From positions 130,239-194,238 of the forward strand of contig JAGNLW010000001.1 in NCBI GenBank assembly GCA_017999365.1: 64,000 nt of DNA, read 5' to 3'. A program made the position numbers and the translations under genes. Source of the DNA: Candidatus Aminicenantes bacterium (lineage in GTDB: Bacteria; Acidobacteriota; Aminicenantia; Aminicenantales; Saccharicenantaceae). The notes beneath the pieces are model-generated. The model was not told the origin of the DNA and did no database searches. It saw nothing but the letters and a program-made list of their open reading frames with translations. Positions 29,181 to 43,848 of this stretch are shown in pieces (the stretch's first letter is position 1; each line of letters begins with the position of its first letter).

Positions 29181-30405
29181 GAACGGCCCCGTTTCTCGGG
29201 CCTTCTTCGAGAGGCGCAAGCGCGTCATGGGGCGGTCCATCGCCCTCGGCCATTGCATCTGCAACCCCAAGGACCCCTGCCCCTGCGACCTCTTCAAACA
29301 GAAGAACGTCTGTCTCTGCGCCGGCGAGCGCGAGGCCGACGCCCCCGACGACGTCGCCCTGACCACTCTCGTCGAGAACGCCGGCTGCGCCTCAAAGATC
29401 GGCCAGGAGGACCTCAAGCGGGCCCTCGCCGGCCTGCCGCGCACCTTCGACCGCCGCGTCCTCGTCTCCTCGGACACCTGCGACGACGCCGGCGTCTACG
29501 CCCTGACCCCGCGCACGGCCCTCGTCCAGTCGGTCGACGTCTTCACCCCCGTCGTCGACGACGCCTACGCCTTCGGCGAGATCGCCGCCGCCAACTCCCT
29601 CAGCGACATCTACGCCATGGGCGGCCGCCCCCTGACGGCCCTGTCCATCGTCGCCTTCCCCATCGAGCGCCTCAGCCCGCGCCTCATGAACCGCATGCTC
29701 CAGGGCGGCGTCGACAAGCTCCGCGAAGCGGGCGTGGCCCTCCTCGGCGGCCACAGCATCAAGGACCGCGAGATCAAGTTCGGTTTCGCCGTGACCGGCG
29801 TCGTCGACCCCCGCCGCATGACCGTGAACAACCGCGCCAAGCCCGGCGACGTTCTCGTCCTGACCAAGCCCCTCGGCACGGGCACGCTGAGCTTCGCCCG
29901 CCAGATCGGCCGGGCCCCGGCCGACGGCCTGGCCGCCGCCGAGCTCTCCATGCGCGCCCTCAACAAGGCCGCCGCCGCCCTCTTACCGGCCTTCCGCGTC
30001 ACCACGGCCACCGACATCACCGGCTTCGGCCTGGCCGGCCACCTCGGCGAGATCGCCGCCCAGAGCCGAGTCGACATCGAGGTCTTCGGCGCCTCCCTCC
30101 CCGTCTTCCCCGGCGTCCTCGAGCTCATCCGCGCCGGGGTCGTCTCGGGCGCCGTCGAGCGCAATCGCGAATACGCCTCGTCCTTCGTCCGGCGCGCCGA
30201 TCTGACCGTCCCCGAGGAGCTCGAGACGCTCCTCTACGACCCCCAGACCTCGGGCGGCCTGCTCGTCGCCGTCCGCCCCTCGCGGGCCGCGGCTTTCCTC
30301 TCCGCCCTCGGCCGCGCCGGCGTCCCGGCCGCCGCCATCGTCGGACGCGTCACCCGCAAGTCCGCCAAGCCCCGCATCGTCCTCCGCGCCGCCGCCCCGC
30401 GCTGA
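29164..30405 (+). CDS. selD: Selenide, water dikinase (selenophosphate synthetase), Cys-type, with Cys-rich N-terminal extension
   Basis: Core ...LTTLVENAGCASKIG... aligns to E. coli SelD ...LTQYSHGAGCGCKI... (Cys rather than Sec at the active-site position). The AIR-synthase-like fold blocks are present. A ~50-aa N-terminal extension with HCICNPKDPCPCDLFKQKNVCLCAGE precedes the core. Alternative start ATG 29227. Confidence 0.9.
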   Translation: MKKTNRNGPVSRAFFERRKRVMGRSIALGHCICNPKDPCPCDLFKQKNVCLCAGEREADAPDDVALTTLVENAGCASKIGQEDLKRALAGLPRTFDRRVLVSSDTCDDAGVYALTPRTALVQSVDVFTPVVDDAYAFGEIAAANSLSDIYAMGGRPLTALSIVAFPIERLSPRLMNRMLQGGVDKLREAGVALLGGHSIKDREIKFGFAVTGVVDPRRMTVNNRAKPGDVLVLTKPLGTGTLSFARQIGRAPADGLAAAELSMRALNKAAAALLPAFRVTTATDITGFGLAGHLGEIAAQSRVDIEVFGASLPVFPGVLELIRAGVVSGAVERNREYASSFVRRADLTVPEELETLLYDPQTSGGLLVAVRPSRAAAFLSALGRAGVPAAAIVGRVTRKSAKPRIVLRAAAPR

Positions 30406-34919: not shown

Positions 34920-36095
34920 ATGAGGAATCCCCTGTCTAAGCTCAAGGTCCTGGCCGCGTTGGCCGTCCTAACGGCGGGTATCGGCGCCTGCGGCCTCGGC
35001 GGCGACACCGGTCGGCTCTCCCTGAGCCTGACCGACGCCGCGACCGACCAGTATAACGCCGTCTACGTCACCATCCGCGAGGTCGCCGTCCACGCCGAGG
35101 GCGATATGGAGGATGGCTGGACGGTCGTCTCCAGCCCGAACAAGACCGTCAATCTCCTGGACCTCGTCAACGGCGTCCGCGAGCAGCTGGCCCTGGCCGA
35201 CCTCACGGCCGGGCATTACACCCAGCTCCGGCTCATGATCGGCGAGACGGCCGACGGCGGCGTCAACATCCGCAGCCAGGCCCATCCCTTCGCCAACTAC
35301 GTCATCGACGACCGCGACGATTATCACGAGCTGAAGATCCCGAGCGGCCTGCAGACGGGCGTCAAGATCGTCCAGGGCTTCGATATCAACGAGAACCGGA
35401 CGACCGAGCTCATCCTCGACTTCGACGCCTCCCGGTCCGTCGTCGCGGCCGGCCGCAGCGGCCGGTATCTCCTGAAGCCGACCATCCAGGTGCTCGGCAC
35501 CGAATTGGCCGCTATCGTGAGCGGCTCCGTCACCACGCCCGACGCCAACCTGAACCCCGTGGCCGTCCCCGGGGCCCTCGTCAGCGCCCAGGTCTACGAC
35601 GCCACGGCGGCCGATCCCAAGGACCGGGTCCTCGTGCGCACCGCCACCATGAGCGACGACGCCGGCGCCTACAAGCTCTTCATCGGAGCCGGGTCCTACA
35701 ACTTCGTCGCCGGCCGCCTGGGCGAGGTCGAACCCGTCTTCGCCCCGGTCGCCCTCCCTCTCACCGTCGAGGCCGACACGACGCCGACCCAGGACTTCTC
35801 CGTCGAGGACGTCGCCGCAGCCGACCTCGGCACGCTCGACGGCACGGTGACGATCGCCAGCCCGGCCACGGACGCCTACGTGACCATCTCGGTCCGCACG
35901 ACCGTCACGCTGACGACCGGGGACGCCGTCGTCGAGGTCTGGACGGCCAACGTCCAGGACGGCGGGACCTACTCCATCAAGCTGCCGGCCGGGACCTACA
36001 GCCTCGTCGCCTGGACGAGCGGCCGGCCGACCTTCGAAGCGACCGGCGTCGCCCTGACGGCGAACACGACCACTTCGGTTCCCGTCTCCTTCTGA
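34920..36095 (+). CDS. DUF4382-like lipoprotein
   Basis: Start ATG 34920 (track ORF begins at 34884). Lipoprotein signal ...LTAGIGACG. LSLSLTDAATDQYNAVYVTIREVAVH matches the N-terminal signature of the DUF4382 family as I recall it. Confidence 0.65.
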   Translation: MRNPLSKLKVLAALAVLTAGIGACGLGGDTGRLSLSLTDAATDQYNAVYVTIREVAVHAEGDMEDGWTVVSSPNKTVNLLDLVNGVREQLALADLTAGHYTQLRLMIGETADGGVNIRSQAHPFANYVIDDRDDYHELKIPSGLQTGVKIVQGFDINENRTTELILDFDASRSVVAAGRSGRYLLKPTIQVLGTELAAIVSGSVTTPDANLNPVAVPGALVSAQVYDATAADPKDRVLVRTATMSDDAGAYKLFIGAGSYNFVAGRLGEVEPVFAPVALPLTVEADTTPTQDFSVEDVAAADLGTLDGTVTIASPATDAYVTISVRTTVTLTTGDAVVEVWTANVQDGGTYSIKLPAGTYSLVAWTSGRPTFEATGVALTANTTTSVPVSF

Positions 36096-36107
36096 TCCGC
36101 ACGCTCT

Positions 36108-36150
36108 GAAAGGGCCTTCCGGGGCGAGACCCGGCAGGCCCTTCGTTTAT
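36108..36150 (+). terminator. Putative rho-independent terminator after the DUF4382 gene
   Basis: GAAAGGGCC ... GGCCCTTC stem (with a nested CCGGG/CCCGG hairpin) followed by GTTTAT. Confidence 0.35.
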
Positions 36151-36311
36151 CGTCCCCTTCGTTGACCCGGCCGCCGGATTCTCTTATAATCCGTCCGGGT
36201 GCACGGGGCAATGAGGCCCCGCGCAGGTTATCGCCTCACGGGTGGTCGGGCCGCCATCCTTATCGTCCCGGAACGCCTCCCCGGCGTTCGGGGCGCCGAT
36301 AGGGAGTCGCC

Positions 36312-37991
36312 ATGGCTCAGGGTATGACCACCAACGGTTGGATTTTCTTCGCGCTCGGCTGGGGCACGATCATCGCCCTGGCCCTGTACTGCTTCCGCCG
36401 CGTCTTGTTCGGCAAAAAACCCGAGATCGTCGTCGAGGCCGGCGGCCGCGAGCAATGGGGCTCGCGGGTCGGGCTCATCCTGGCCGTGGCCGGCAACGCC
36501 ATCGGCCTGGGCAACTTCCTGCGTTTCCCGGTCAAGGCGGCCGCCAACGGCGGCGGCGCCTTCATGATCCCCTACTTCGTGGCCTTCCTGCTGCTCGGCA
36601 TCCCCATGATGTGGGTCGAGTGGACGATCGGCCGTATGGGCGGGGCCCACGGCCACGGCACGACGCCGGGCATGCTCAACCTGCTCTGGAAGAAAGCGCC
36701 TTCGAAGTACCTCGGCGCGCTGGGCATCGTCATCCCCTTCGTCATCGTCATCTACTACAATTTCATCGAGTCGTGGTGCCTGGGCTTCTCCTGGTTCTCG
36801 ATCACCGGCAAGTATTTCGGCCACGCCAACCGCGAGGCCATGGGACAGTTCCTACGCGGCTTCCAGGGAGTCGAGTCGAACGAATTCTTCAGCTCCATGG
36901 CCCCCATCCTCATCTTCTGGGGCATCACCATCGCCATGAACTTCTTCTTTCTCTACAAGGGCATCTCCCGAGGCATCGAGGTCCTGGCCAAGTACGGCAT
37001 GCCCTTGCTCTTCGTCTTCGGCATCGTTCTCGTCGTCCGCGTCCTGACCCTGGGCACGCCCGATCCGTCGACGCCGGAGCTCAACATCGGGGCCGGACTG
37101 GGCTATATCTGGAACCCCGACTTCAGCCGCCTGGGGTCGGCCACGGTCTGGCTGGTCGCGGCCGGGCAGATCTTCTTCACCCTGAGCCTGGGCCAGGGCA
37201 TCATCAACACCTACGCGTCCTACGTCCGCGAGAAGCAGGACATCACCCTCAACGGCATCACGACCGCCTCGACCAACGAGTTCGCGGAGGTCGTGCTCGG
37301 CGGCACCATCGCCATCCCGGCCGCCATCGTCTTCTTCGGCCTGGCCGAGACCCAGGCCATCGCCCAGGGCGGCGCCTTCAACCTGGGCTTCCAGGCCCTG
37401 CCGGTCATCTTCCAGAAGATCCCGCTCGGCCAGATCTTCGGCGGCATGTTCTTCTTCCTTCTCTTCATCGCCGGCATCACCTCGTCCGTGGCCATGACCC
37501 AGCCGGCCATCGCCTTCCTCCAGGACGAGTTCAAATGGAAGCGCGAGAAGGCCGTCGTGGTCGTGTTCTCCGTGCTGGTCACGATGACGGCCATGGTCAT
37601 CGCCTTCTTCCGGTTCGGCTTCCTCGACGAGCTCGACTTCTGGGCCGGCACCTTCGGCCTGGTCGTCTTCGCGGCCATCGAGATCGTCCTGTTCTCCTGG
37701 GTCTTCGGTCTCAAGAAGGGCTGGGCCGAGATGCACAAGGGAGCCGACCTCAAAGTGCCGCGCGTCTTCCGCTTCATCCTGACCTACATCACGCCCATCT
37801 ACCTGCTGGTCATGCTGGCCATCTGGACCTACCAGGACGCGGTCAAAGCCTTCCTGATGAAGGACAAGCCAGAGGCCGACAAACCCTACCTGTGGGGCGC
37901 CCGGGTCATGATCGCCGCCCTGCTCCTGGCCATGTGCTTGCTCATCCGCAAGGCCTGGAACCGGAAAAAAGCCGAGCCGCAGGCGTCATGA
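36312..37991 (+). CDS. Neurotransmitter:sodium symporter (NSS/SNF) family transporter
   Basis: GNAIGLGNFLRFP is the NSS signature (GNxVGLGNxWRFP). 559 aa, 12 TM. Confidence 0.9.
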   Translation: MAQGMTTNGWIFFALGWGTIIALALYCFRRVLFGKKPEIVVEAGGREQWGSRVGLILAVAGNAIGLGNFLRFPVKAAANGGGAFMIPYFVAFLLLGIPMMWVEWTIGRMGGAHGHGTTPGMLNLLWKKAPSKYLGALGIVIPFVIVIYYNFIESWCLGFSWFSITGKYFGHANREAMGQFLRGFQGVESNEFFSSMAPILIFWGITIAMNFFFLYKGISRGIEVLAKYGMPLLFVFGIVLVVRVLTLGTPDPSTPELNIGAGLGYIWNPDFSRLGSATVWLVAAGQIFFTLSLGQGIINTYASYVREKQDITLNGITTASTNEFAEVVLGGTIAIPAAIVFFGLAETQAIAQGGAFNLGFQALPVIFQKIPLGQIFGGMFFFLLFIAGITSSVAMTQPAIAFLQDEFKWKREKAVVVVFSVLVTMTAMVIAFFRFGFLDELDFWAGTFGLVVFAAIEIVLFSWVFGLKKGWAEMHKGADLKVPRVFRFILTYITPIYLLVMLAIWTYQDAVKAFLMKDKPEADKPYLWGARVMIAALLLAMCLLIRKAWNRKKAEPQAS

Positions 37992-38326
37992 AGAAGGCCG
38001 ACGCGTTCACCTGCCCCGCGCCGGCCAAGCGGAAGAAGGGGGGCGGCCACCCGTTCATGCGCGCCCTGCTCTTCGGCGCGGGCGTGCCCAGCCTTCTTCT
38101 CTGGGCCTGGTTCGTCGCCACGGACCTGGCCCCGGGACTGGCCGACTTCCTATTCGGCCTGACAGCCCTGTGGATGCTGTTCGTCCGCCTGTTCGAGGCC
38201 AGCGGCATCACCGACGGGTCCGCCCCGCCCGGGAAGGCCGAGCGCCGGCGTGTCGTGGTGTTCACGGCCGCGCTGACGGCGGGCGCGGCCGGGCTCTACG
38301 CCCTGGCCAAGTTCGTCGGCCTGTGA
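37988..38326 (+). CDS. Small membrane protein translationally coupled to the NSS transporter
   Basis: ATG 37988 overlaps the NSS stop (ATGA). 112 aa with 3 predicted TM helices. It is the tail of artefactual ORF 36242..38326. Confidence 0.5.
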   Translation: MKKADAFTCPAPAKRKKGGGHPFMRALLFGAGVPSLLLWAWFVATDLAPGLADFLFGLTALWMLFVRLFEASGITDGSAPPGKAERRRVVVFTAALTAGAAGLYALAKFVGL

Positions 38327-38350
38327 ACTCGTCAGCCCGCCGGTCGCGGC

Positions 38351-39276
38351 TCAGCGCTTCTTCGGCCGGAAGACGATGCCCATCGGCTTGAGGTAGTCCT
38401 CGAGCGGCGGCAGACCGAGCTCCTTGCGCCATTCGTCCACGCGGGCCTCGTCCTCGAGGGGGTAGAGCTCTTCCTTCTTGGTCAGCTCGTTGTACCTCGT
38501 GTGCGTGCCGTATCTCTGCGGCTGGTTGTCGTTATACAGGCCCCGGTCGCAGACGGCGGCGTATCGCTCCCAGGGGAGTTCCCCCGCCTCGCAGACCGTC
38601 TTGATATCGGCCAGATACGTCTTCTGGGCCCCGTCGCTCGAGTGCATCACGACCAGGAAAGCGGCCATGGTTGCCTCGCGCCCCACCGCCGCCACCCGGG
38701 GCCAGCCCTTCTCGGCGATCAGTTCCTCGAGCTCGGCCTGGCTCCGCTGCTGGACCATGAACTTGAACGGCCACAAGGCCTCGACGACCGAGGACCGCAT
38801 GCCGATCCTGCGGCCGGCGATGCCGACCTCCTCGAAGAAGGCCTGATCCCAGGCCCGGAGCCTCCACAGGGCTTTGGCGTACTCGACGTCCCCGAAGGTT
38901 TTGCCGGACTTGGCGGCGAGCGCGGCCAAGAGCCCATCCTCGAACGCGCCCCAGCGCCGGTCTCCCCGGGCCGTCACGAGATCGCCGTCGGTCAGGATCT
39001 CCAGCGAAGGCGCCAGCTCCGCGGCCTGAGCGAGGTATTTGAAGCATTCGTCCATCCTCTTGTTGATGGACAGGGCCCGGGCCAGGCCGAGAATGGCACC
39101 CGCGTCCTTGGGATCCTGGAGCAGGTCCTTCCGGTATTCCTCGATGGCCCCCGGGATATCGCCTTCGGCAGCCGCTCGCCGGGGCTGCCCCCTGCCTGCG
39201 GAAGGGGCGGTTGCGCCAGGGCCCCGCCGAGGATCGCCAGGAAGACCACTATGGACAAACCGCCGCGCATGATCAT
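38351..39276 (-). pseudogene. Secreted TPR-like protein. The signal peptide (39276 downward) and the body (ORF 38351..39055, extended upstream) are in different frames, so there is an apparent 1-nt indel near 39150-39175.
   Basis: Minus-strand ATG 39276 gives MIMRGGLSIVVFLAILGGALAQPPLPQAGGSPGERLPKA. The frame of MDECFKYL... extended upstream reads EGDIPGAIEEYRKDLLQDPKDAGAILGLARALSINKR (TPR-like). The two frames meet near ccgaaggcgatatc. Confidence 0.5.
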
Positions 39277-39396
39277 ATCGGCTCCTCTCCTAGTGATTTC
39301 GCCGCAGGAGCGGTCCGCGTTTATCGTCACATGGGGAATGGCGATATGGCGGCGTTCTTTGCACGGACGGGGATGGCCGGCCCCGCCGCCGGACAG

Positions 39397-41049
39397 TTAA
39401 CGAGGCGTGACGGGTCGACGAGTGGCGTTGGTCCCGCAATGGACCTCGCCGCCGTACCGATGGTAGGGGGAGAAGTCGTCGATGACCGCGATCCTGCAGC
39501 CGAGCGGCTCCAACCGGTCCTTGACGGCCCGCAGCAGCACGTCCGTTCCCCCGACGAGCGGCCCGTGGGGATCGGGGACGATCAGGGTCTTGCCGACCTG
39601 GAGAGAATTGACCATGTTGGCCGTCAAGGCGCCGTAACGGCCCTCGAAGCGGCCGGGCCAGGTCTCGAACAGGACGGGGATCTCGACGATATCCGCGTCG
39701 TCGATGCCGAGCTCGGCCTGGAGCGTCCGGCGCACCGCATCGATCTTCTTCTGGACGAAGGCCTGGTCGGCCCGGACCTTCGGGTCCTTCAGGACCGTCG
39801 CGACCGGCGCATCGAGGTATTCCCCTTTCTCGCTGTCCGGGCGCCGGGTCCCCCGGTTCAGGATGCCGCCCGGAGCCGCCCGCTCCGCGTCGCGGAGAAG
39901 CTCCAGGGCCAGGCGGGGCGAAGGCAAGAGCATCCGAAAGGGGCGCCCGACGTCGGACGGGACCCACGACACGGTTTCGTCGACGTGGCCGATGACGAGC
40001 CACGACGTATCGAGCCACAGCACGGGAGCCTGCGCCCCCTGGGCCTCGAGGAAAGCGATGACCTCGGGATGCATGGACCGGGCCCCTTGGGTTCCCGCGT
40101 AGACGCGGCCGAAAGGAAAAGCGCGATCCCCGACCGTGACCGGAGGGCTGACCTCGAGATTGCCGTACCAATCGATCCATTCCGCCGACCGGCCCCGATC
40201 GCTCCCCGGATGGATGACCGCGGAATCGGGGCCGAGAAAGGACTCGGCGAATAACCCGTCCAGCTCATGTCCCCGATTCCCGTGGAGAGCGACAGGGATC
40301 GCCCTCCGTCCATCGCCCGCCCAACCGATCTCCGTGGCGTCCTGGATCCAGATGTCGTGCTCGGGCAGGTCCGGCCGTTCGAAGGCCAGGAGCCGCGCCC
40401 CGGCCGCTTCGACGAGCGGCTTCAGCTCTTCGACGAAGCGTTCGGTCAGCTTCGTCCGCACGACATGAACGGCGTCCGCCGGATCGAGGCAACTGGACAT
40501 CAGGAACGGCGCCAGGGCGACCGCCACAACCCGATGCGCGATCGGCCGTCCTTCCCGGGTCTCGAAACGGAAGCCGACCTCGAACTCGCGGGGACGATCC
40601 CGTCCGGCGAAATCCCCCGCTTCGATGGCGATCTCGACGCTCCCTTCCCGGCATTCTTCGGCCTTGAGCTGAAGGGCGTCCGCGACGGGCCGAAAGCAAC
40701 CGCCCTTCGGATCGAGATGCAGGACCCTGAGGGAGCGCACCCAGGAGGACGGCACTTCGGGCTTAAGGACCGATCCTTCAGGGAGAGACCGACCGGAGAC
40801 GATCCGTGTTCTCACGAGTTCGTTCTCGATAGCCGCATCGAGGGAATCCGCCCGGCAGTCGGGACGTCCGTCCCCGTCGTCGTCGTCGACGTTCGGGATG
40901 ATGGCCCGGGTCTCCCTGAGCCTCTCATTCTGGCCAGACCCGCCGGTCCTGGCCCCGGAAACGATCGTCCCCCTCAGGATGAACGCGGCCAAGAGCACCG
41001 TTCCGAGACATAAGGCCGTCAACCGGGGCAAGTCATGCCTGTCGCTCAT
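39397..41049 (-). CDS. Protein-arginine deiminase (PAD, eukaryote-type catalytic domain) homolog, secreted or membrane-anchored
   Basis: C-terminal ...YGGEVHCGTNATRRP matches the PAD catalytic-Cys region (human PAD4 ...GEVHCGTNVRRKP...). The N-terminus has a signal/TM anchor. 550 aa. Confidence 0.65.
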   Translation of the reverse strand: MSDRHDLPRLTALCLGTVLLAAFILRGTIVSGARTGGSGQNERLRETRAIIPNVDDDDGDGRPDCRADSLDAAIENELVRTRIVSGRSLPEGSVLKPEVPSSWVRSLRVLHLDPKGGCFRPVADALQLKAEECREGSVEIAIEAGDFAGRDRPREFEVGFRFETREGRPIAHRVVAVALAPFLMSSCLDPADAVHVVRTKLTERFVEELKPLVEAAGARLLAFERPDLPEHDIWIQDATEIGWAGDGRRAIPVALHGNRGHELDGLFAESFLGPDSAVIHPGSDRGRSAEWIDWYGNLEVSPPVTVGDRAFPFGRVYAGTQGARSMHPEVIAFLEAQGAQAPVLWLDTSWLVIGHVDETVSWVPSDVGRPFRMLLPSPRLALELLRDAERAAPGGILNRGTRRPDSEKGEYLDAPVATVLKDPKVRADQAFVQKKIDAVRRTLQAELGIDDADIVEIPVLFETWPGRFEGRYGALTANMVNSLQVGKTLIVPDPHGPLVGGTDVLLRAVKDRLEPLGCRIAVIDDFSPYHRYGGEVHCGTNATRRPVTPR

Positions 41050-41170
41050 GGAGGCACGTTAACATAGCCCACCTGTGGAATCAACGCGGCCGGCGGCCGC
41101 ACGGGAAGTTCCCCATGACCCGGATCGCCTTGACACATGTTCCCCGAGAGACTACCATCACTCCGCCCTC

Positions 41171-41265
41171 GGGAGGGTGAAGGATCCGGTGATCCTTCCG
41201 GACTTCAAATCCGGTATGGGGCTATAAACGTCCCGGATGGGTTCGACTCCCATACCTTCCCGCCA
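41171..41265 (+). tRNA. selC: tRNA-Sec (anticodon UCA)
   Basis: 95 nt. 8-bp acceptor stem GGGAGGGU/ACCUUCCC (one G-U), 6-bp D-stem AGGAUC/GAUCCU with 4-nt loop, anticodon stem CCGGA/UCCGG with loop CUUCAAA (UCA), long variable arm GGGGC-UAUAAAC-GUCCC, 5-bp T-stem AUGGG/CCCAU with loop UUCGACU, discriminator G and an encoded CCA. This is the bacterial 8/5 tRNA-Sec architecture. Confidence 0.85.
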
Positions 41266-41338
41266 CTCCCCTTCCCGCCGAGCCCTTGACAACCCCGGCC
41301 ATCGGATTATCCTTATCTGCGGGGATCGGTAAGAAACC

Positions 41339-42997
41339 ATGGCGCGGAGCCGAACTGCGTTCCTCCTGCTCGCATTGACGGCGGTCCTCGGATCGTGCGG
41401 AGCCGAGGCCCCCGCCGAGATCACCGTATCCGTCATCCCGGATGCGGCCGTGGTCTATCCTTTCTACTCGAGACAGTTTCGGGCCTACGTCCGTAATTCG
41501 ACGGACAACAACGTCACCTGGAGCGTGTCCGGAACGGGCCGCTGCGGCACGATCAACGAGACCGGCCGTTACACCGCTCCTCCGAGCGTCCCCAATCCGG
41601 CCCGGGTGATGGTCACGGCGACTTCCGTCGAGGACCCGACCAAGTCGGCCTCCGCCGCGGTCGAACTTGTCTACGGCCCCGACGATCCCAACCAATGGAC
41701 ATGGGTCAACGGCAGCGACCAGGTCGACGAGCGCGGCGACTATGGGACGAAAGGTGTTTCCGCCGCTGCCAACGCGCCGGGAGCCCGACAGTCCGCCCTC
41801 TCTTGGAGCGGCCCGTCCGGCACGCTTTGGCTGTTCGGAGGCTTCGGCTATTCCCACGACGTCGGCATCCTCAACGACCTGTGGAATTACGATCCCGCGA
41901 TCGACCAATGGACCTGGATCTCGGGCGGCGATCATCCCGACCAGGTCGGCGTGTATGGGACGAAAGGGACCCCGAACGCCGCGAACGTCCCCGGGAGCCG
42001 GGAGTGGTCCGCCTCCTGGATCGACGCCGTCGGCCGGCTCTGGCTCTTCGGCGGCGAAGCCTACGATGCGGACGGGAACCTCGGCACGATCAACGATCTG
42101 TGGCGGTTCGATCCGAGCGCCGGCGCGTGGACCTGGATCTCCGGCAGCGACCGATGCTGGGAGTCCGGGATCTACGGCGCCAAAGGCGTGGCGGACCCCG
42201 CGAACATGCCGGGAGGTCGACGGGGGCATGTCTCCTGGATCGACCCGGAGGGCGCGCTCTGGCTCTTCGGCGGTAAGGGCTTCGATACTACCCCCGAACA
42301 GCTCTTCGGCTCTTTCAACGATCTTTGGAAATTCGACCCGAGCACCCTTCTTTGGACTTGGATGTCGGGGACGGACGACATCGAACGGCCTGGGACCTAC
42401 GGCGTCAAGAGGGTCCCCGATCCGGCGAACGTCCCGGGAGGACGGGAGGGGGCCTCGAGCTGGACCGATGCGGAGGGGAACCTTTGGCTCTTCGGCGGGT
42501 CCGGCTGCGATGCGACCGGAGGCGTCGAGGCGCTCAACGATCTCTGGAAGTTCGACCGCGTCCTGGGACAGTGGACATGGATGTCGGGGAGCGACCTCGG
42601 CGATTCGTACGGCACCTATGGCGCCCTCGGCGCGCCGGCGCCAACGAACGTCCCCGGGGCCCGCACCGGGGCCGTGGCCTGGACCGACCGCCTGGGAAGG
42701 CTCTGGCTCTTCGGCGGTTACGGATTCGCCGCGGCCGGCTACGGCCGCGAGCTCAACGATCTCTGGCGGTTCGATCCTTCGACCCTCGAATGGACCTGGA
42801 TCTCGGGCAGCGACCAGCCCGAACCGCGCGGCATCTACACCGAGCGCCATATCGTCGAGTACATCGACGCTCCCGGGGGCCGCTATCATGCCGTCTCCTG
42901 GCTCGGCCCCCGCGGAGACCTCTGGCTCTTCGGCGGCCGGGGCTACGACGCCGACCGCGGCGGCCATCTCAACGACCTCTGGCGATTTCAATTCTGA
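41339..42997 (+). CDS. Kelch-repeat (galactose-oxidase-type) beta-propeller lipoprotein with N-terminal Ig-like domain
   Basis: Lipoprotein signal ...VLGSCGA. Eight repeats of the pattern YGTKG-x5-ANVPG-R-x5-W-x-D-x2-G-x-LWLFGG-x-G-x-D...LNDLW-x-FDP. Confidence 0.85.
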   Translation: MARSRTAFLLLALTAVLGSCGAEAPAEITVSVIPDAAVVYPFYSRQFRAYVRNSTDNNVTWSVSGTGRCGTINETGRYTAPPSVPNPARVMVTATSVEDPTKSASAAVELVYGPDDPNQWTWVNGSDQVDERGDYGTKGVSAAANAPGARQSALSWSGPSGTLWLFGGFGYSHDVGILNDLWNYDPAIDQWTWISGGDHPDQVGVYGTKGTPNAANVPGSREWSASWIDAVGRLWLFGGEAYDADGNLGTINDLWRFDPSAGAWTWISGSDRCWESGIYGAKGVADPANMPGGRRGHVSWIDPEGALWLFGGKGFDTTPEQLFGSFNDLWKFDPSTLLWTWMSGTDDIERPGTYGVKRVPDPANVPGGREGASSWTDAEGNLWLFGGSGCDATGGVEALNDLWKFDRVLGQWTWMSGSDLGDSYGTYGALGAPAPTNVPGARTGAVAWTDRLGRLWLFGGYGFAAAGYGRELNDLWRFDPSTLEWTWISGSDQPEPRGIYTERHIVEYIDAPGGRYHAVSWLGPRGDLWLFGGRGYDADRGGHLNDLWRFQF

Positions 42998-43257
42998 TCC
43001 GGTGACCGTAGAGCCACGATGCACCCGACTTGACAACCTGTCCGTTCGGGATATGCTTGAACCCGGGGTTTCGGATAGGGATGCAAGTTCCTCGTTTGAT
43101 CCGGTTCATTCTTCTATCGACCGCCCAGGTCCTTTCGTCCGACATGTACTTCACCGTCGAGACCGAGGTCGCGTACTGAGCGGTCCGGTCGGTTGACTTC
43201 CCGGCGCATATCTGCGCATCATAGAAGCAGACGAGGAACGACACGGAGTGAGATGAC

Positions 43258-43848
43258 ATGACGCCCGCAACGAGGTCCGTCCGCGCCGCGCTCGCCGCGG
43301 CCTTCGCCCTGGCCGTCCTTCTCGCGCCCGCCGCGTCGGCCGAGGTCTTCAAGGCCCGCATGCTGACCGGCATGGCCCCCGTCGAACCGCCCATGGTCAA
43401 CGTCCAGATGGAGGTCACCGGCTGGACGACGCTCGAGGAGATCCGCCAGTTCCAGGACATCCTCGGCTCGGCCGGCATCGACGCCTTCCTGGCCGCCTTC
43501 AACCAGGCCGACAAGGGCACCGTCCGGTTCATGACCACGCGCGGCTGGAACCTGCCCATTCACGCGGCCGTGGTCGTGCCTGACGACAAAGGCGGCAAGG
43601 TTGTGCGGCTGTTCTTCAACCGCCAAAGCTGGAACCCGGGCTCCTACAAGCCGGTCGGGCGGCACTATTTCATGGCCATCGAGCTCAAGCTCAACGAGAA
43701 GGGCAAGGGCGAGGGCCGGTTCTACGAGGATGCCCAGCTCAAGCTGAACTCCCTCGCGGCGACCGTCGAGATCGAGACCTACGAGTCGGCCCCCAAGCTC
43801 TTCCCGCAGGTCCAGGAAGTGGTCAAGAAGGCCGACGCGAAGAAGTAG
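43258..43848 (+). CDS. Secreted hypothetical protein (196 aa)
   Basis: Signal peptide (...APAASAEV). Lys-rich native-like composition. It is the only long ORF in a lower-GC stretch. Confidence 0.6.
   Translation: MTPATRSVRAALAAAFALAVLLAPAASAEVFKARMLTGMAPVEPPMVNVQMEVTGWTTLEEIRQFQDILGSAGIDAFLAAFNQADKGTVRFMTTRGWNLPIHAAVVVPDDKGGKVVRLFFNRQSWNPGSYKPVGRHYFMAIELKLNEKGKGEGRFYEDAQLKLNSLAATVEIETYESAPKLFPQVQEVVKKADAKK

What the first reader, a model, noticed from the sequence alone, without database searches (positions are those of the whole stretch)
39397..41049. Eukaryote-type protein-arginine deiminase (PAD) homolog in a bacterium, secreted
The C-terminal ...GEVHCGTNATRRP... is nearly identical to the catalytic-cysteine region of vertebrate PAD enzymes (...GEVHCGTNVRRKP...). 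It is distinct from agmatine deiminase or Porphyromonas PPAD motifs. Bacterial members of this family are sparse and usually attributed to horizontal transfer. The protein has an N-terminal signal or TM anchor, suggesting extracellular citrullination activity. It sits next to the tRNA-Sec gene, and tRNA genes are common integration sites.
Basis: partly seen in the sequence, partly recalled or inferred. Interest (0 to 1): 0.55.

Follow-up and report, generated by a model that had tools for sequence, protein, structure and literature searches.

The report
Exported bacterial protein-arginine deiminase (Aminicenantes)
This gene encodes a bona fide member of the protein-arginine deiminase family (the enzymes that turn arginine into citrulline in proteins), carried by an uncultured Aminicenantes bacterium and fitted with an export signal; such bacterial relatives are already known, so it is a solid but fairly ordinary new member.

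Summary
ORF 39397..41049 (-) encodes 550 aa ending GEVHCGTNATRRPVTPR. It hits Pfam PAD PF03068 at E=1.2e-80 and no agmatine or arginine deiminase model. Its predicted structure superposes on human PADI4 (TM 0.81).

It is a two-domain PAD: a divergent PAD_M plus PAD_C, with no PAD_N. The catalytic Asp237/His355/Asp357/Cys538 and calcium sites 1 and 3-5 are intact. The Ca2 "switch" site is missing.

An N-terminal hydrophobic export signal is conserved in 100 of 109 full-length close relatives. About a third of these look like lipoproteins.

The host is a Candidatus Aminicenantes MAG from sewage or digester samples. The protein belongs to a clade found only in Aminicenantes (55-77% identity). That clade is separate from the animal plus Nostocales-type cyanobacterial clade and from the actinobacterial "THHH" type.

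"Eukaryote-type", horizontal acquisition and tRNA-mediated integration are not supported:
- Identity to human PADs (36%) equals that to other distant bacterial PADs.
- The tRNA-Sec–PAD–DUF6624–SNF order is shared with a related species.
- No integrase or att repeat is present.
- PAD lies on the tRNA's conserved 5' side.

No gene partner is conserved. The likely function is Ca-dependent citrullination outside the cytoplasm, with unknown substrates. Verdict: new member of a known kind, modest interest.

The parts
39397..41049 (-). PAD gene, 550 codons plus stop. The ATG start at 41047-41049 is preferred over NCBI's TTG start at 40990-40992 (531 aa).
   Evidence: ORF list and codon check. Pfam PF03068 E=1.2e-80. 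The exact protein is in NCBI as a 531-aa 'hypothetical protein [Candidatus Aminicenantes bacterium]'. The upstream start is supported because 100 of 109 homologs keep the N-terminal hydrophobic segment.
40951..41049 (-). Export signal (aa 1-33): charged n-region MSDRHDLPR, h-region L10-L25, and a possible signal-peptidase I site VSGA|R. It could instead act as an uncleaved signal anchor.
   Evidence: Kyte-Doolittle mean of 2.44 over 15 aa starting at residue 11, and family-wide conservation. The AF2 model has a helix at 10-31 with low pLDDT. The cleavage site is inferred by the -3/-1 rule only; no SignalP was available.
40909..40950 (-). Disordered linker (aa 34-47).
   Evidence: pLDDT below 50 for residues 25-44. 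Sequence and length vary across homologs.
40510..40908 (-). Divergent PAD_M (Ig-like beta) domain, aa 48-180. Its acidic Ca-binding cluster is N53, D55, D57, D64, E75, E77 and E143, corresponding to PAD4 Ca3-5 ligands N153, D155, D157, D165, D176/D179 and E252.
   Evidence: The family profile aligns from position 46 to PAD4 residue 146 onward, E=3.5e-83. The model has beta strands from 48 to 179 at pLDDT above 90. Foldseek TM 0.81 normalised to 550 residues over 525 columns must include this domain. Site table. The Pfam PAD_M model itself gave no hit at E<=1.
39409..40509 (-). PAD_C catalytic domain, aa 181-547. Catalytic residues are D237 (40339-40341), H355 (39985-39987), D357 (39979-39981) and C538 (39436-39438). 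Substrate-site residues are W234 and R259. Ca1 ligands are Q236, E240 and E299. Ca2 positions are A238, H256, G257 and G260, so the site is absent. D275 corresponds to PAD4 D388.
   Evidence: All the conserved residues listed except D275 are invariant in the 46-sequence family alignment A2. D275 is conserved in most family members but varies (N in two clade members, K in L015). Of the Ca2-position residues, G257 and G260 are invariant and A238 is nearly so.
41171..41265 (+). tRNA-Sec (anticodon TCA). It is a neighbour, not part of the PAD function. It is divergent from PAD, with its 3' end pointing away.
   Evidence: ARAGORN and Rfam RF01852 at 76.5 bits. A promoter-like TTGACA-17-TACCAT lies at 41130-41158.
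38351..39276 (-). Downstream neighbour: a signal-peptide + TPR + DUF6624 gene. Here it is split by a net -1 frameshift near 39170-39190. The pairing with PAD is seen only in the closest relative.
   Evidence: Pfam DUF6624. The intact 308-aa ortholog follows PAD in L088. tblastn shows two frames. The indels are identical in four assemblies.

Best explanation
The gene encodes a two-domain PF03068 protein-arginine deiminase (divergent PAD_M plus PAD_C, no PAD_N) of an uncultured Candidatus Aminicenantes bacterium.

**Export (inferred).** The protein is made with an N-terminal Sec-type signal, either cleaved after about Ala33 or kept as a membrane anchor. The enzyme therefore works outside the cytoplasm, in the periplasm or tethered to a membrane. 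Ca2+ is available there.

**Chemistry (by homology to PAD4).**
- Asp237 and Asp357 hold the guanidinium group of a peptidyl-arginine.
- The Cys538 thiolate attacks the guanidinium carbon.
- His355 acts as the acid/base.
- Ammonia leaves, and water hydrolyses the S-alkylthiouronium intermediate to give peptidyl-citrulline.

**Calcium (inferred).** Ca2+ bound at site 1 (Q236, E240, E299) and at the PAD_M acidic cluster (sites 3-5) should order the active site. The Ca2 "switch" of animal PADs is absent, so calcium control must differ from that of animal enzymes.

**Evolution and partners.** The gene is an old resident of an Aminicenantes-specific clade. It is not a recent import from eukaryotes and it has no fixed operon partner. 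Its substrates are therefore encoded elsewhere or are environmental proteins and peptides.

**Shown versus inferred.** Shown here: family membership, fold, residue conservation, conservation of the export signal, phylogenetic placement and lack of conserved neighbours. Inferred: activity, Ca dependence, cleavage site, final location and substrates.
For: **Family and fold**
- PF03068 E=1.2e-80.
- Best solved relatives are human PAD3/4/1/2, E down to 1.8e-62.
- The family profile aligns positions 46-546 to PAD4 146-654, E=3.5e-83.
- AF2 model: pLDDT 85, pTM 0.83.
- Foldseek to PADI4 8r8u: E=4e-46, TM 0.81.

**Active site and calcium sites**
- D/H/D/C, W347, R372 and Ca1 equivalents are conserved and are invariant in 46 family members.
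- Ca3-5 ligands are conserved. Ca2 positions read A/H/G/G throughout the clade.

**Export**
- 100 of 109 full-length close homologs have the hydrophobic N-terminus, and 33 have a lipobox-like Cys.
- 37 of 128 broader representatives also have such a signal.

**Organism and clade**
- The exact protein is held in NCBI under Candidatus Aminicenantes.
- All but one (L017, a truncated match labelled Planctomycetales) of the GTDB hits at 55-66% identity are Aminicenantes MAGs; two of these carry an 'Eubacteriales' label in their records.
- Neighbour-joining bipartition bootstraps: Aminicenantes 76, with L015 100, human + Nostocales-type + one alphaproteobacterium 96.

**Residency**
- PAD–DUF6624–orf112–SNF synteny and a nearby tRNA-Sec are shared with a related species, L088.
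- PAD GC follows the flank GC across 20 genomes.

**No partner**
- Clustering of flanking ORFs in 17 loci finds no family in more than 3 loci.
- Neighbourhoods differ between loci.

**Precedent**
- Recombinant cyanobacterial PADI is Ca-dependent and active (PMC8826395).
- A Streptomyces PF03068 PAD makes the citrulline of citrulassin (bioRxiv 10.1101/2020.07.16.207027).
Against: - No biochemical data exist for this clade.
- The Ca2 site, essential for activating human PADs, is missing.
- PAD4 R374, which binds the substrate backbone, is His261 here, although it is Arg in most clade members.
- The Pfam PAD_M model does not hit.
- Signal-peptide prediction rests on hydropathy and the -3/-1 rule only. 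NCBI's annotation uses a later TTG start that would remove the signal.
- PAD has the lowest GC3 of 29 window genes (0.82) and atypical codon usage. This could mean weak expression or a later, within-phylum acquisition.
- No RBS-like sequence is evident before the ATG.
Confidence: 0.72

Rival explanations
1. PAD was acquired recently by horizontal transfer, from a eukaryote or another phylum, on an element integrated at tRNA-Sec.
For: - PAD lies 121 nt from tRNA-Sec.
- PAD and the Kelch gene on the other side of the tRNA have the lowest GC3 of 29 genes (0.82 and 0.83) and rank in the top four for codon-usage distance.
- In assemblies L001 and L002 the sequence breaks exactly after the tRNA-Sec anticodon loop and continues into GC 0.55 DNA. 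This tRNA is therefore a variable site.
Against: - PAD is on the 5' side of the tRNA. That side is 99.97-100% conserved in both strain variants.
- No integrase or transposase is present among the neighbours.
- The window holds no full or partial repeat of the tRNA.
- A related species keeps tRNA-Sec–(S41)–PAD–DUF6624–(DUF4328)–orf112–SNF.
- The closest 100+ homologs are all the same ~550-aa type, and the named ones are Aminicenantes.
- None of 18 related loci has a tRNA adjacent to PAD; the two tRNAs found (Asp in L015, Thr in L018) lie about 3.6-3.9 kb upstream.
- Identity to human PADs is only 36%.
Confidence: 0.05
2. The protein is cytoplasmic. The true start is the downstream TTG (531 aa, as in NCBI), and the hydrophobic N-terminus is not translated or is not a targeting signal.
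For: NCBI records MBP7705753.1 and NLH76333.1 aa. No clear Shine-Dalgarno sequence lies before the ATG. Characterised PF03068 PADs (animal, cyanobacterial, Streptomyces) are intracellular, to my own knowledge.
Against: - The n-region + h-region + linker layout is conserved in 100 of 109 homologs although the sequence varies. Many have a lipobox-like Cys after the h-region.
- Other gene callers (ENA, Logan, JGI) give 550 aa.
- The TTG start would leave a truncated hydrophobic stub, MAAFILRGTIV.
Confidence: 0.1
3. It is exported, but its physiological substrate is free L-arginine or small guanidino compounds. It would then serve nutrient or ammonia scavenging in a protein-fermenting anaerobe rather than protein citrullination.
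For: - Neighbourhoods in relatives lean towards peptide and amino-acid use: OPT transporter, peptidases S8, M55 and S41, ornithine cyclodeaminase, and an SNF symporter here.
- The window also carries glutamate-fermentation genes such as MutE.
- PAD4 R374, the backbone-binding residue, is His261 here.
Against: - R374 is Arg in most of the clade.
- The other peptidyl-substrate site residues W347 and R372 are invariant.
- PF03068 enzymes characterised so far act on peptidyl-arginine (PMC8826395).
- Neighbour themes are weak, and no family recurs in more than 3 of 17 loci.
Confidence: 0.12
4. It is a catalytically dead pseudoenzyme, like mammalian PADI6, with a structural or binding role.
For: Loss of the Ca2 site.
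Against: All four catalytic residues, W347, R372 and the Ca1 ligands are invariant in 46 family members. PADI6 chains score far lower than active PADs (E=1.7e-31 against 1.8e-62). Other two-domain PADs lacking Ca2 are considered functional (PMC8826395).
Confidence: 0.03

Closest known systems
Human PAD4/PAD3 (PADI family, PF03068; solved structures 8r8u, 1wda, 7dan)
   Same: Same catalytic fold and the same PAD_M + PAD_C arrangement (Foldseek TM 0.81). The catalytic Asp/His/Asp/Cys, W347, R372 and Ca1 and Ca3-5 ligands match. The C-terminal GEVHCGTN motif is nearly the same.
   Different: - No PAD_N domain.
- Ca2 switch ligands E351/D369/S370/N373 are replaced by A/H/G/G.
- Linker motif is APFLMSSCLDP rather than APWIMTPNT, and WIDWYGNLE replaces LDSFGNLE.
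- Only 36% identity in the catalytic domain.
- It has an N-terminal export signal, whereas the human enzymes are intracellular.
Three-domain cyanobacterial PADI (e.g. Cyanothece sp. 8801 'cyanoPADI'; clade Ai of Cummings et al. 2021, PMC8826395)
   Same: Bacterial PF03068 enzyme, shown to be Ca-dependent and active on proteins. It shares the catalytic, Ca1 and Ca3-5 residues.
   Different: The cyanobacterial type has a PAD_N domain and a full Ca2 site, and it groups with animals (bootstrap 96). The window protein lies in a separate clade, at 34% identity to Calothrix PCC 7103.
Two-domain actinobacterial/fungal PADs (e.g. Streptomyces albulus PAD that makes citrulassin; Harris et al. 2020)
   Same: Same two-domain layout without PAD_N. 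No canonical Ca2 site. Stand-alone gene with diverse neighbourhoods, acting on substrates encoded elsewhere.
   Different: The window protein lacks the diagnostic APVLTHHH triple-His linker seen in Streptomyces and Ktedonobacter. It branches elsewhere, with Planctomycetota and Armatimonadota. It carries an export signal.
Porphyromonas gingivalis PPAD (PF04371)
   Same: An exported bacterial enzyme that citrullinates peptidyl-arginine outside the cytoplasm. This is the nearest functional analogy for an extracytoplasmic PAD. Both belong to the guanidino-modifying enzyme superfamily.
   Different: It is a different family; the window protein gives no PF04371 hit. PPAD is Ca-independent. From my own knowledge, PPAD is secreted by the type IX system through a C-terminal domain. 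The window protein has no C-terminal extension.

Membership tests
Protein-arginine deiminase, PF03068 (PAD/PADI) | Match to the PAD (PAD_C) profile above Pfam's gathering score. | tested here: met
   271.9 bits against a cut-off of 25, E=1.2e-80, profile positions 3-389 of 395.
Protein-arginine deiminase, PF03068 (PAD/PADI) | Catalytic Cys645 with Asp350, His471 and Asp473 (PAD4 numbering). | tested here: met
   C538, D237, H355 and D357 are invariant in the 46-member family alignment and in all 79 sequences compared.
Protein-arginine deiminase, PF03068 (PAD/PADI) | Alpha/beta-propeller catalytic fold preceded by an Ig-like PAD_M domain. | tested here: met
   AF2 pLDDT 85. Foldseek top 50 are all vertebrate PADs, TM 0.81 over about 525 columns. 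The profile alignment begins at PAD4 residue 146. The Pfam PAD_M model itself does not hit.
Protein-arginine deiminase, PF03068 (PAD/PADI) | Ca2+-dependent conversion of peptidyl-arginine to citrulline. | not testable with these tools
   Only residue conservation is available. Ca1 (Q236, E240, E299) and Ca3-5 ligands are present.
Animal / late-cyanobacterial three-domain PADI (clade Ai, PMC8826395) | N-terminal cupredoxin-like PAD_N domain. | tested here: not met
   Only a signal peptide and a 14-aa linker precede PAD_M.
Animal / late-cyanobacterial three-domain PADI (clade Ai, PMC8826395) | Ca2 site ligands E351, D369, S370, N/D373. | tested here: not met
   A238, H256, G257, G260 here and throughout the Aminicenantes clade. 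E-D-S-[ND] in human PADs and the Nostocales-type cyanobacteria, and also in Methanophagales, some Actinobacteria, Paenibacillus and a few other lineages.
Animal / late-cyanobacterial three-domain PADI (clade Ai, PMC8826395) | Phylogenetic grouping with animal PADs. | tested here: not met
   The neighbour-joining tree places it with Aminicenantes + L015 (bootstrap 100). Human PADs group with the Nostocales type (96). This is a distance method only.
Actinobacterial / fungal two-domain PADI (clade B, PMC8826395) | Triple-histidine linker motif at PADI2 300-302. | tested here: not met
   The window has APFLMSSCLDP. Streptomyces and Ktedonobacter have APVLTHHH.
Actinobacterial / fungal two-domain PADI (clade B, PMC8826395) | Gly in place of the Ca-switch Asp (PADI2 D389, PAD4 D388). 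| tested here: not met
   D275 in the window, and D in most of the clade. My alignment also shows D in Streptomyces, so this column is alignment-sensitive.
Porphyromonas-type PAD / agmatine deiminase (PF04371) and arginine deiminase (PF02274) | Match to those profiles. | tested here: not met
   No hit at E<=1; the only other listing is a spurious Leu_leader match. NCBIfam gave no hit at all.
tRNA-integrated genomic island | Integrase gene, direct repeat of the tRNA 3' part, cargo on the 3' side of the tRNA, absence from related genomes. | tested here: not met
   No integrase among the neighbours. No tRNA repeats. PAD is on the 5' side. Synteny with L088. Codon usage is atypical, the only point in favour.
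Sec-exported protein / lipoprotein | n-h-c signal peptide with a peptidase site, or a lipobox. | tested here: inconclusive
   The n- and h-regions are clear and conserved. VSGA|R fits the -3/-1 rule. The window protein has no proper lipobox, although about 30% of relatives do. No dedicated predictor was available.

The most novel reading that the evidence does not exclude
The Aminicenantes proteins form a phylum-wide clade of Sec-exported or lipoprotein-anchored two-domain PADs that lack the Ca2 switch. They would carry out citrullination outside the cytoplasm in free-living anaerobes. Possible roles are remodelling the cell's own envelope proteins, neutralising cationic peptides, or conditioning environmental proteins and peptides for uptake. 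This would be the first extracytoplasmic PF03068 system, and a free-living counterpart of the unrelated P. gingivalis PPAD. It would also represent a third bacterial PAD lineage (APFL..S.LDP / WIDWYGNLE motifs, shared with Planctomycetota and Armatimonadota), relevant to how calcium control of PADs evolved.
Probability: 0.4. Interest if true: 0.5.

Novelty: new member of a known kind. Interest (0 to 1): 0.28.

Why it matters
Citrullination is best known from human immunity, chromatin biology and autoimmunity. What PF03068 enzymes do in bacteria is almost unknown: one cyanobacterial enzyme has been assayed, and one Streptomyces enzyme has been tied to a lasso peptide.

A well-populated clade of PADs that carry export signals and lack the Ca2 switch would offer two things. 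It is a natural experiment on how calcium regulates these enzymes. It also hints that protein or peptide deimination happens outside the cytoplasm in anaerobic, protein-degrading communities such as digesters and sediments.

For genome annotation, the practical points are these. The NCBI call ('hypothetical protein', 531 aa) should read 'protein-arginine deiminase family protein', 550 aa with a signal peptide. The gene should not be read as a eukaryote-derived transfer.

Tried and rejected
- NCBIfam scan: no family matched.
- First family alignment A1 used coordinates that clipped the start codon and kept the stop, so numbering was off by one. It was redone as A2.
- Biopython get_support on midpoint-rooted NJ trees gave misleadingly low supports. 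I replaced it with bipartition counting.
- Search for conserved operon partners:
  - tblastn of 10 window neighbours against 84 loci found hits only in the same-strain assemblies.
  - Four neighbourhood look-ups were all different, apart from DUF6624 in the 77% relative.
  - All-versus-all clustering of flanking ORFs in 17 loci found nothing recurrent.
- tRNA adjacency in relatives: none of 18 loci has a tRNA next to PAD. Only the closely related L088 has tRNA-Sec nearby.
- att-site search: no second copy of the tRNA-Sec 3' end, 5' half or 3' half in the window.
- Literature searches for Aminicenantes + PAD and for PF03068 + signal peptide returned nothing relevant. Only eight papers in the library mention PF03068.
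- Group I intron in tRNA-Sec as an explanation for the L001/L002 breakpoint: rejected, because the 3' exon does not reappear in the remaining 656 nt and a protein gene starts there.
- Tat export: no twin-arginine consensus in the n-region (read directly).
- Limits: the PAD_M Pfam model does not hit, and no ML tree software or SignalP was available.
Full report
**1. Observation**

The minus-strand ORF 39397..41049 is real. It runs from ATG at 41047-41049 to TAA at 39397-39399 and encodes 550 aa. It ends ...YGGEVHCGTNATRRPVTPR. In HMMER alignments this lies opposite human PAD4 ...HGEVHCGTNVRRKPF.

The resemblance is not limited to one motif. Pfam PAD (PF03068) matches residues 171-547 over profile positions 3-389 of 395 at 271.9 bits, E=1.2e-80. 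No agmatine deiminase/PPAD or arginine deiminase model appears even at E<=1. NCBIfam has no model that hits. The best solved relatives are human PAD3, PAD4, PAD1 and PAD2, with E from 1.8e-62 to 1e-53. The inactive PADI6 scores far lower.

The tRNA-Sec neighbour is also real. It lies at 41171..41265 (+) (ARAGORN; Rfam RF01852 at 76.5 bits). It is 121 nt from the PAD start codon and transcribed divergently.

**2. Anatomy**

A profile built from 46 family members (A2) aligns positions 46-546 to PAD4 residues 146-654 at E=3.5e-83. [quoted passage not shown] Nothing corresponds to PAD_N.

An AlphaFold2 model built on that alignment has pLDDT 85 and pTM 0.83. Its parts are:
- an N-terminal helix at residues 10-31;
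- a disordered linker, with pLDDT below 50 for residues 25-44;
- a beta domain at residues 48-180;
- the catalytic domain.

Foldseek against the PDB returns only vertebrate PADs in its top 50. The best is PADI4 8r8u, with E=4e-46 and TM 0.81 normalised to the 550-residue query, over 525 columns. The catalytic domain alone is only 68% of the query, so the superposition must include the PAD_M-like domain.

Residue mapping, using PAD4 numbering for the reference:

| Feature | PAD4 residues | Window residues | Status |
|---|---|---|---|
| Catalytic | D350, H471, D473, C645 | D237, H355, D357, C538 | conserved |
| Substrate site | W347, R372 | W234, R259 | conserved |
| Substrate backbone | R374 | H261 | Arg in most of the clade |
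| Ca1 | Q349, E353, E411 | Q236, E240, E299 | conserved |
| PAD_M cluster (Ca3-5) | N153, D155, D157, D165, D176/179, E252 | N53, D55, D57, D64, E75/E77, E143 | conserved |
| Ca4 ligand | D388 | D275 | conserved |
| Ca2 | E351, D369, S370, N373 | A238, H256, G257, G260 | absent, here and in the whole clade |

All the conserved residues in this table except D275 are invariant in A2. D275 is Asp in most clade members but varies (N in two, K in L015).

**3. Export signal**

The N-terminus has three parts:
- a charged n-region, MSDRHDLPR;
- a 16-residue hydrophobic stretch, L10-L25;
- a plausible signal-peptidase site, VSGA|R.

Among 120 close homologs, 109 have at least 25 residues before the conserved PN[IVL]DD motif. 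Of these, 100 have a strongly hydrophobic N-terminal segment, and 33 carry a lipobox-like Cys after it.

NCBI's 531-aa call (MBP7705753.1 / NLH76333.1, 'hypothetical protein') starts at the TTG codon for Leu20 and would cut this signal in half. Family conservation favours the 550-aa form.

Export-type N-termini are also common in the wider family, at 37 of 128 representatives by the same crude test. No C-terminal sorting domain is present. The evidence therefore supports an extracytoplasmic location, either periplasmic or membrane-tethered. It does not show release into the medium. A dedicated signal-peptide predictor was not available.

**4. Organism and evolutionary placement**

The exact protein occurs on NCBI, ENA and Logan contigs from sewage and digester-type metagenomes, under the name Candidatus Aminicenantes bacterium. 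More than 100 database proteins of about 550 aa are 55-77% identical. The named ones are Aminicenantes 'protein-arginine deiminase family protein'.

A scan of one genome per GTDB species found at least 566 stretches encoding relatives:
- All but one of the hits at 55-66% identity are Aminicenantes MAGs, two of them carrying an 'Eubacteriales' label in their records. The exception is L017, a truncated match labelled Planctomycetales.
- Next come Planctomycetota, Armatimonadota and a Pyrinomonadaceae MAG, at 36-43% by tblastn (up to 49% for L015 in my own tblastn).
- Then come cyanobacteria, Sumerlaeota, Myxococcota, Streptomyces, Paenibacillus and Methanophagales archaea, at 30-35%.

The exhaustive representative search counts 1,927 clusters at 50% identity with E<=1e-3, and 397 with E<=1e-30.

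I built a neighbour-joining tree of 79 catalytic domains over 361 columns, with 100 bootstraps counted as bipartitions:
- Aminicenantes clade: 76.
- Aminicenantes plus one 'Planctomycetota' MAG (L015): 100.
- Human PAD3/4 with Nostocales-type cyanobacteria plus one alphaproteobacterium: 96.

The window protein is 36% identical to human PADs. It is 34-37% identical to any other distant bacterial or archaeal PAD.

Motifs agree with the tree:
- The PAD_M-PAD_C connector is APFLMSSCLDP, shared with Planctomycetota and Armatimonadota.
- The animal/cyanobacterial form is APWIMTPNT.
- The actinobacterial form is APVLTHHH.
- WIDWYGNLE replaces LDSFGNLE.

Cummings et al. (PMC8826395) described two types. 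The three-domain type occurs in late cyanobacteria and animals. The two-domain type occurs in fungi, actinobacteria and proteobacteria and lacks Ca2 and Ca4. They also noted further bacterial outgroup sequences and argued that the transfer went from cyanobacteria to animals. Harris et al. catalogued 837 bacterial PF03068 proteins. The window protein is a two-domain PAD of a lineage that neither paper discusses by name. It is not 'eukaryote-type' in any specific sense.

**5. Is it an island at the tRNA?**

Evidence against:
- PAD lies on the 5' side of tRNA-Sec.
- Neighbours are ordinary genes: a Kelch lipoprotein, DUF6624, an SNF symporter, a DUF4382 lipoprotein and NYN_YacP, with fumarase and MutE further out. 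There is no integrase.
- The window holds no second copy of any part of the tRNA.
- A related species (L088) keeps the order tRNA-Sec – peptidase S41 – PAD – DUF6624 – DUF4328 – orf112 – SNF. Amino-acid identities to the window are PAD 77%, DUF6624 83%, orf112 79% and SNF C-terminus 93%. Its tRNA-Sec is 95.7% identical.
- PAD GC follows the local GC in 20 genomes spanning 0.55-0.71.

Evidence in favour is limited to codon usage. PAD (GC3 0.82) and the Kelch gene (0.83) have the lowest GC3 of 29 window genes. Both rank in the top four for codon-usage distance. This could reflect weak expression, or an older transfer within the phylum.

This tRNA is nevertheless a variable site. In two sewage assemblies (L001, L002) the sequence is essentially identical to the window up to base 41209, the last base of the anticodon loop. 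It then continues into unrelated DNA of GC 0.55. The 3' flank of tRNA-Sec also differs in L088. All of this variability is on the side away from PAD.

**6. Context and function**

No partner gene is conserved:
- tblastn of the window neighbours against all fetched loci hits only the same strain and L088.
- Four look-ups of homologs show different neighbourhoods. These include OPT transporter with peptidases S8 and M55, DUF1579 with ornithine cyclodeaminase, and a molybdopterin dehydrogenase.
- Clustering of flanking ORFs in 17 loci finds no family in more than 3 loci.

This matches the report that bacterial PF03068 genes sit in highly diverse neighbourhoods and act on substrates encoded elsewhere.

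The best-supported mechanism is therefore a stand-alone, exported, Ca-dependent peptidyl-arginine deiminase that uses the canonical Cys-thiouronium chemistry. Shown here are family membership, fold, active-site integrity, signal conservation and clade placement. Inferred are activity, calcium dependence without the Ca2 switch, cleavage site, final location and substrates. A bias of neighbours towards peptide and amino-acid use is suggestive but weak.

**7. Comparison and novelty**

The protein passes the membership tests for PF03068. It fails those for the animal/cyanobacterial three-domain subtype: no PAD_N, no Ca2 site, and a different phylogenetic position. It fails the test for the actinobacterial/fungal subtype, because it lacks the THHH motif. 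It also fails the tests for PPAD and agmatine deiminase.

In function, its nearest analogue as an exported citrullinating enzyme is P. gingivalis PPAD, which belongs to a different family.

Bacterial PF03068 PADs are documented, and relatives are already annotated as 'protein-arginine deiminase family protein'. This is therefore a new member of a known kind. The export signal and the clade-wide loss of Ca2 are the only features that might interest a specialist. No paper in the searchable library links Aminicenantes or signal peptides to PF03068. That is absence from one library, not proof of novelty.

**8. Verdict**

The PAD family assignment, the export signal and the tRNA-Sec adjacency are right. 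The claims of eukaryote type, horizontal acquisition and tRNA integration are not. Interest is modest, at about 0.28.

Noticed in passing
window 41171-41265 (breakpoint after 41209); L001 1-656, L002 1-571: Two sewage assemblies match the window at 99.97-100% from 38300 up to base 41209, the last base of the tRNA-Sec anticodon loop. They then continue into unrelated DNA of GC 0.55: an AT-rich spacer and the start of a proteasome/Ntn-hydrolase-like ORF (MSLGVVIKGPEGIVLAADSRITLD...). The contig ends there, and no tRNA is detected in those loci. The window and two Logan assemblies have the intact tRNA followed by the Kelch gene. The related species L088 has yet another 3' flank. The 3' side of tRNA-Sec therefore looks like a strain-variable or insertion site.
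   Followed up: partly
window 38351-39276 (-), frameshift near 39170-39190: The gene downstream of PAD encodes a signal peptide, a TPR and DUF6624. Relative to the intact 308-aa ortholog in L088, it is split by a +3 and a -4 indel (net -1). The signal peptide is in one frame and the rest in another. The same sequence occurs in four independent assemblies, so this is probably a real pseudogene or N-terminally truncated gene and not an assembly error.
   Followed up: yes
window 36197-36259 (+), upstream of 36312-37991 (+): An nhaA-I RNA (Rfam RF03057, 53.2 bits, E=1.8e-08) lies directly upstream of a sodium:neurotransmitter symporter (SNF) family gene. From my own knowledge this family is described as a Na+-responsive riboswitch class.
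   Followed up: no
window 39397-41049 and 41339-42997: PAD (GC3 0.82) and the Kelch-repeat lipoprotein gene (GC3 0.83) flank tRNA-Sec. They have the lowest GC3 of 29 window genes (most are 0.90-0.97). Despite being long genes, they rank in the top four for codon-usage distance. The cause is unresolved; it could be weak expression or older acquisition.
   Followed up: partly
L032, L033, L035 (PAD at L035 5797-7692): Three Methanophagales (ANME-1 archaea) MAGs encode about 630-650-aa PAD_M + PAD proteins (Pfam PAD 435 bits, PAD_M 65 bits) with a full Ca2 site (E-D-S-D). In L035 the gene sits directly after a protein-glutamine gamma-glutamyltransferase (TGL) gene and near FmdE. Cummings et al. 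dismissed their single archaeal hit as a misattribution, so these may be genuine archaeal PADs.
   Followed up: partly
window 29233-30402 (+): An AIRS/AIRS_C protein that I read as selenophosphate synthetase (SelD)-like, with a Cys-rich N-terminal extension, lies about 11 kb from tRNA-Sec. This is consistent with selenocysteine use by this organism. Not examined further.
   Followed up: no
window 34923-43848: PAD sits in a run of genes for exported proteins. These are a DUF4382 lipoprotein (AGIGAC), DUF6624 (signal peptide), PAD, a Kelch lipoprotein (AVLGSC) and a 196-aa protein with a signal peptide and no Pfam hit. The arrangement is not conserved in relatives.
   Followed up: partly
PDB search results: Every solved PF03068 structure returned is a vertebrate PAD. 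No bacterial, fungal or archaeal PAD structure appeared in the sequence or fold searches.
   Followed up: no
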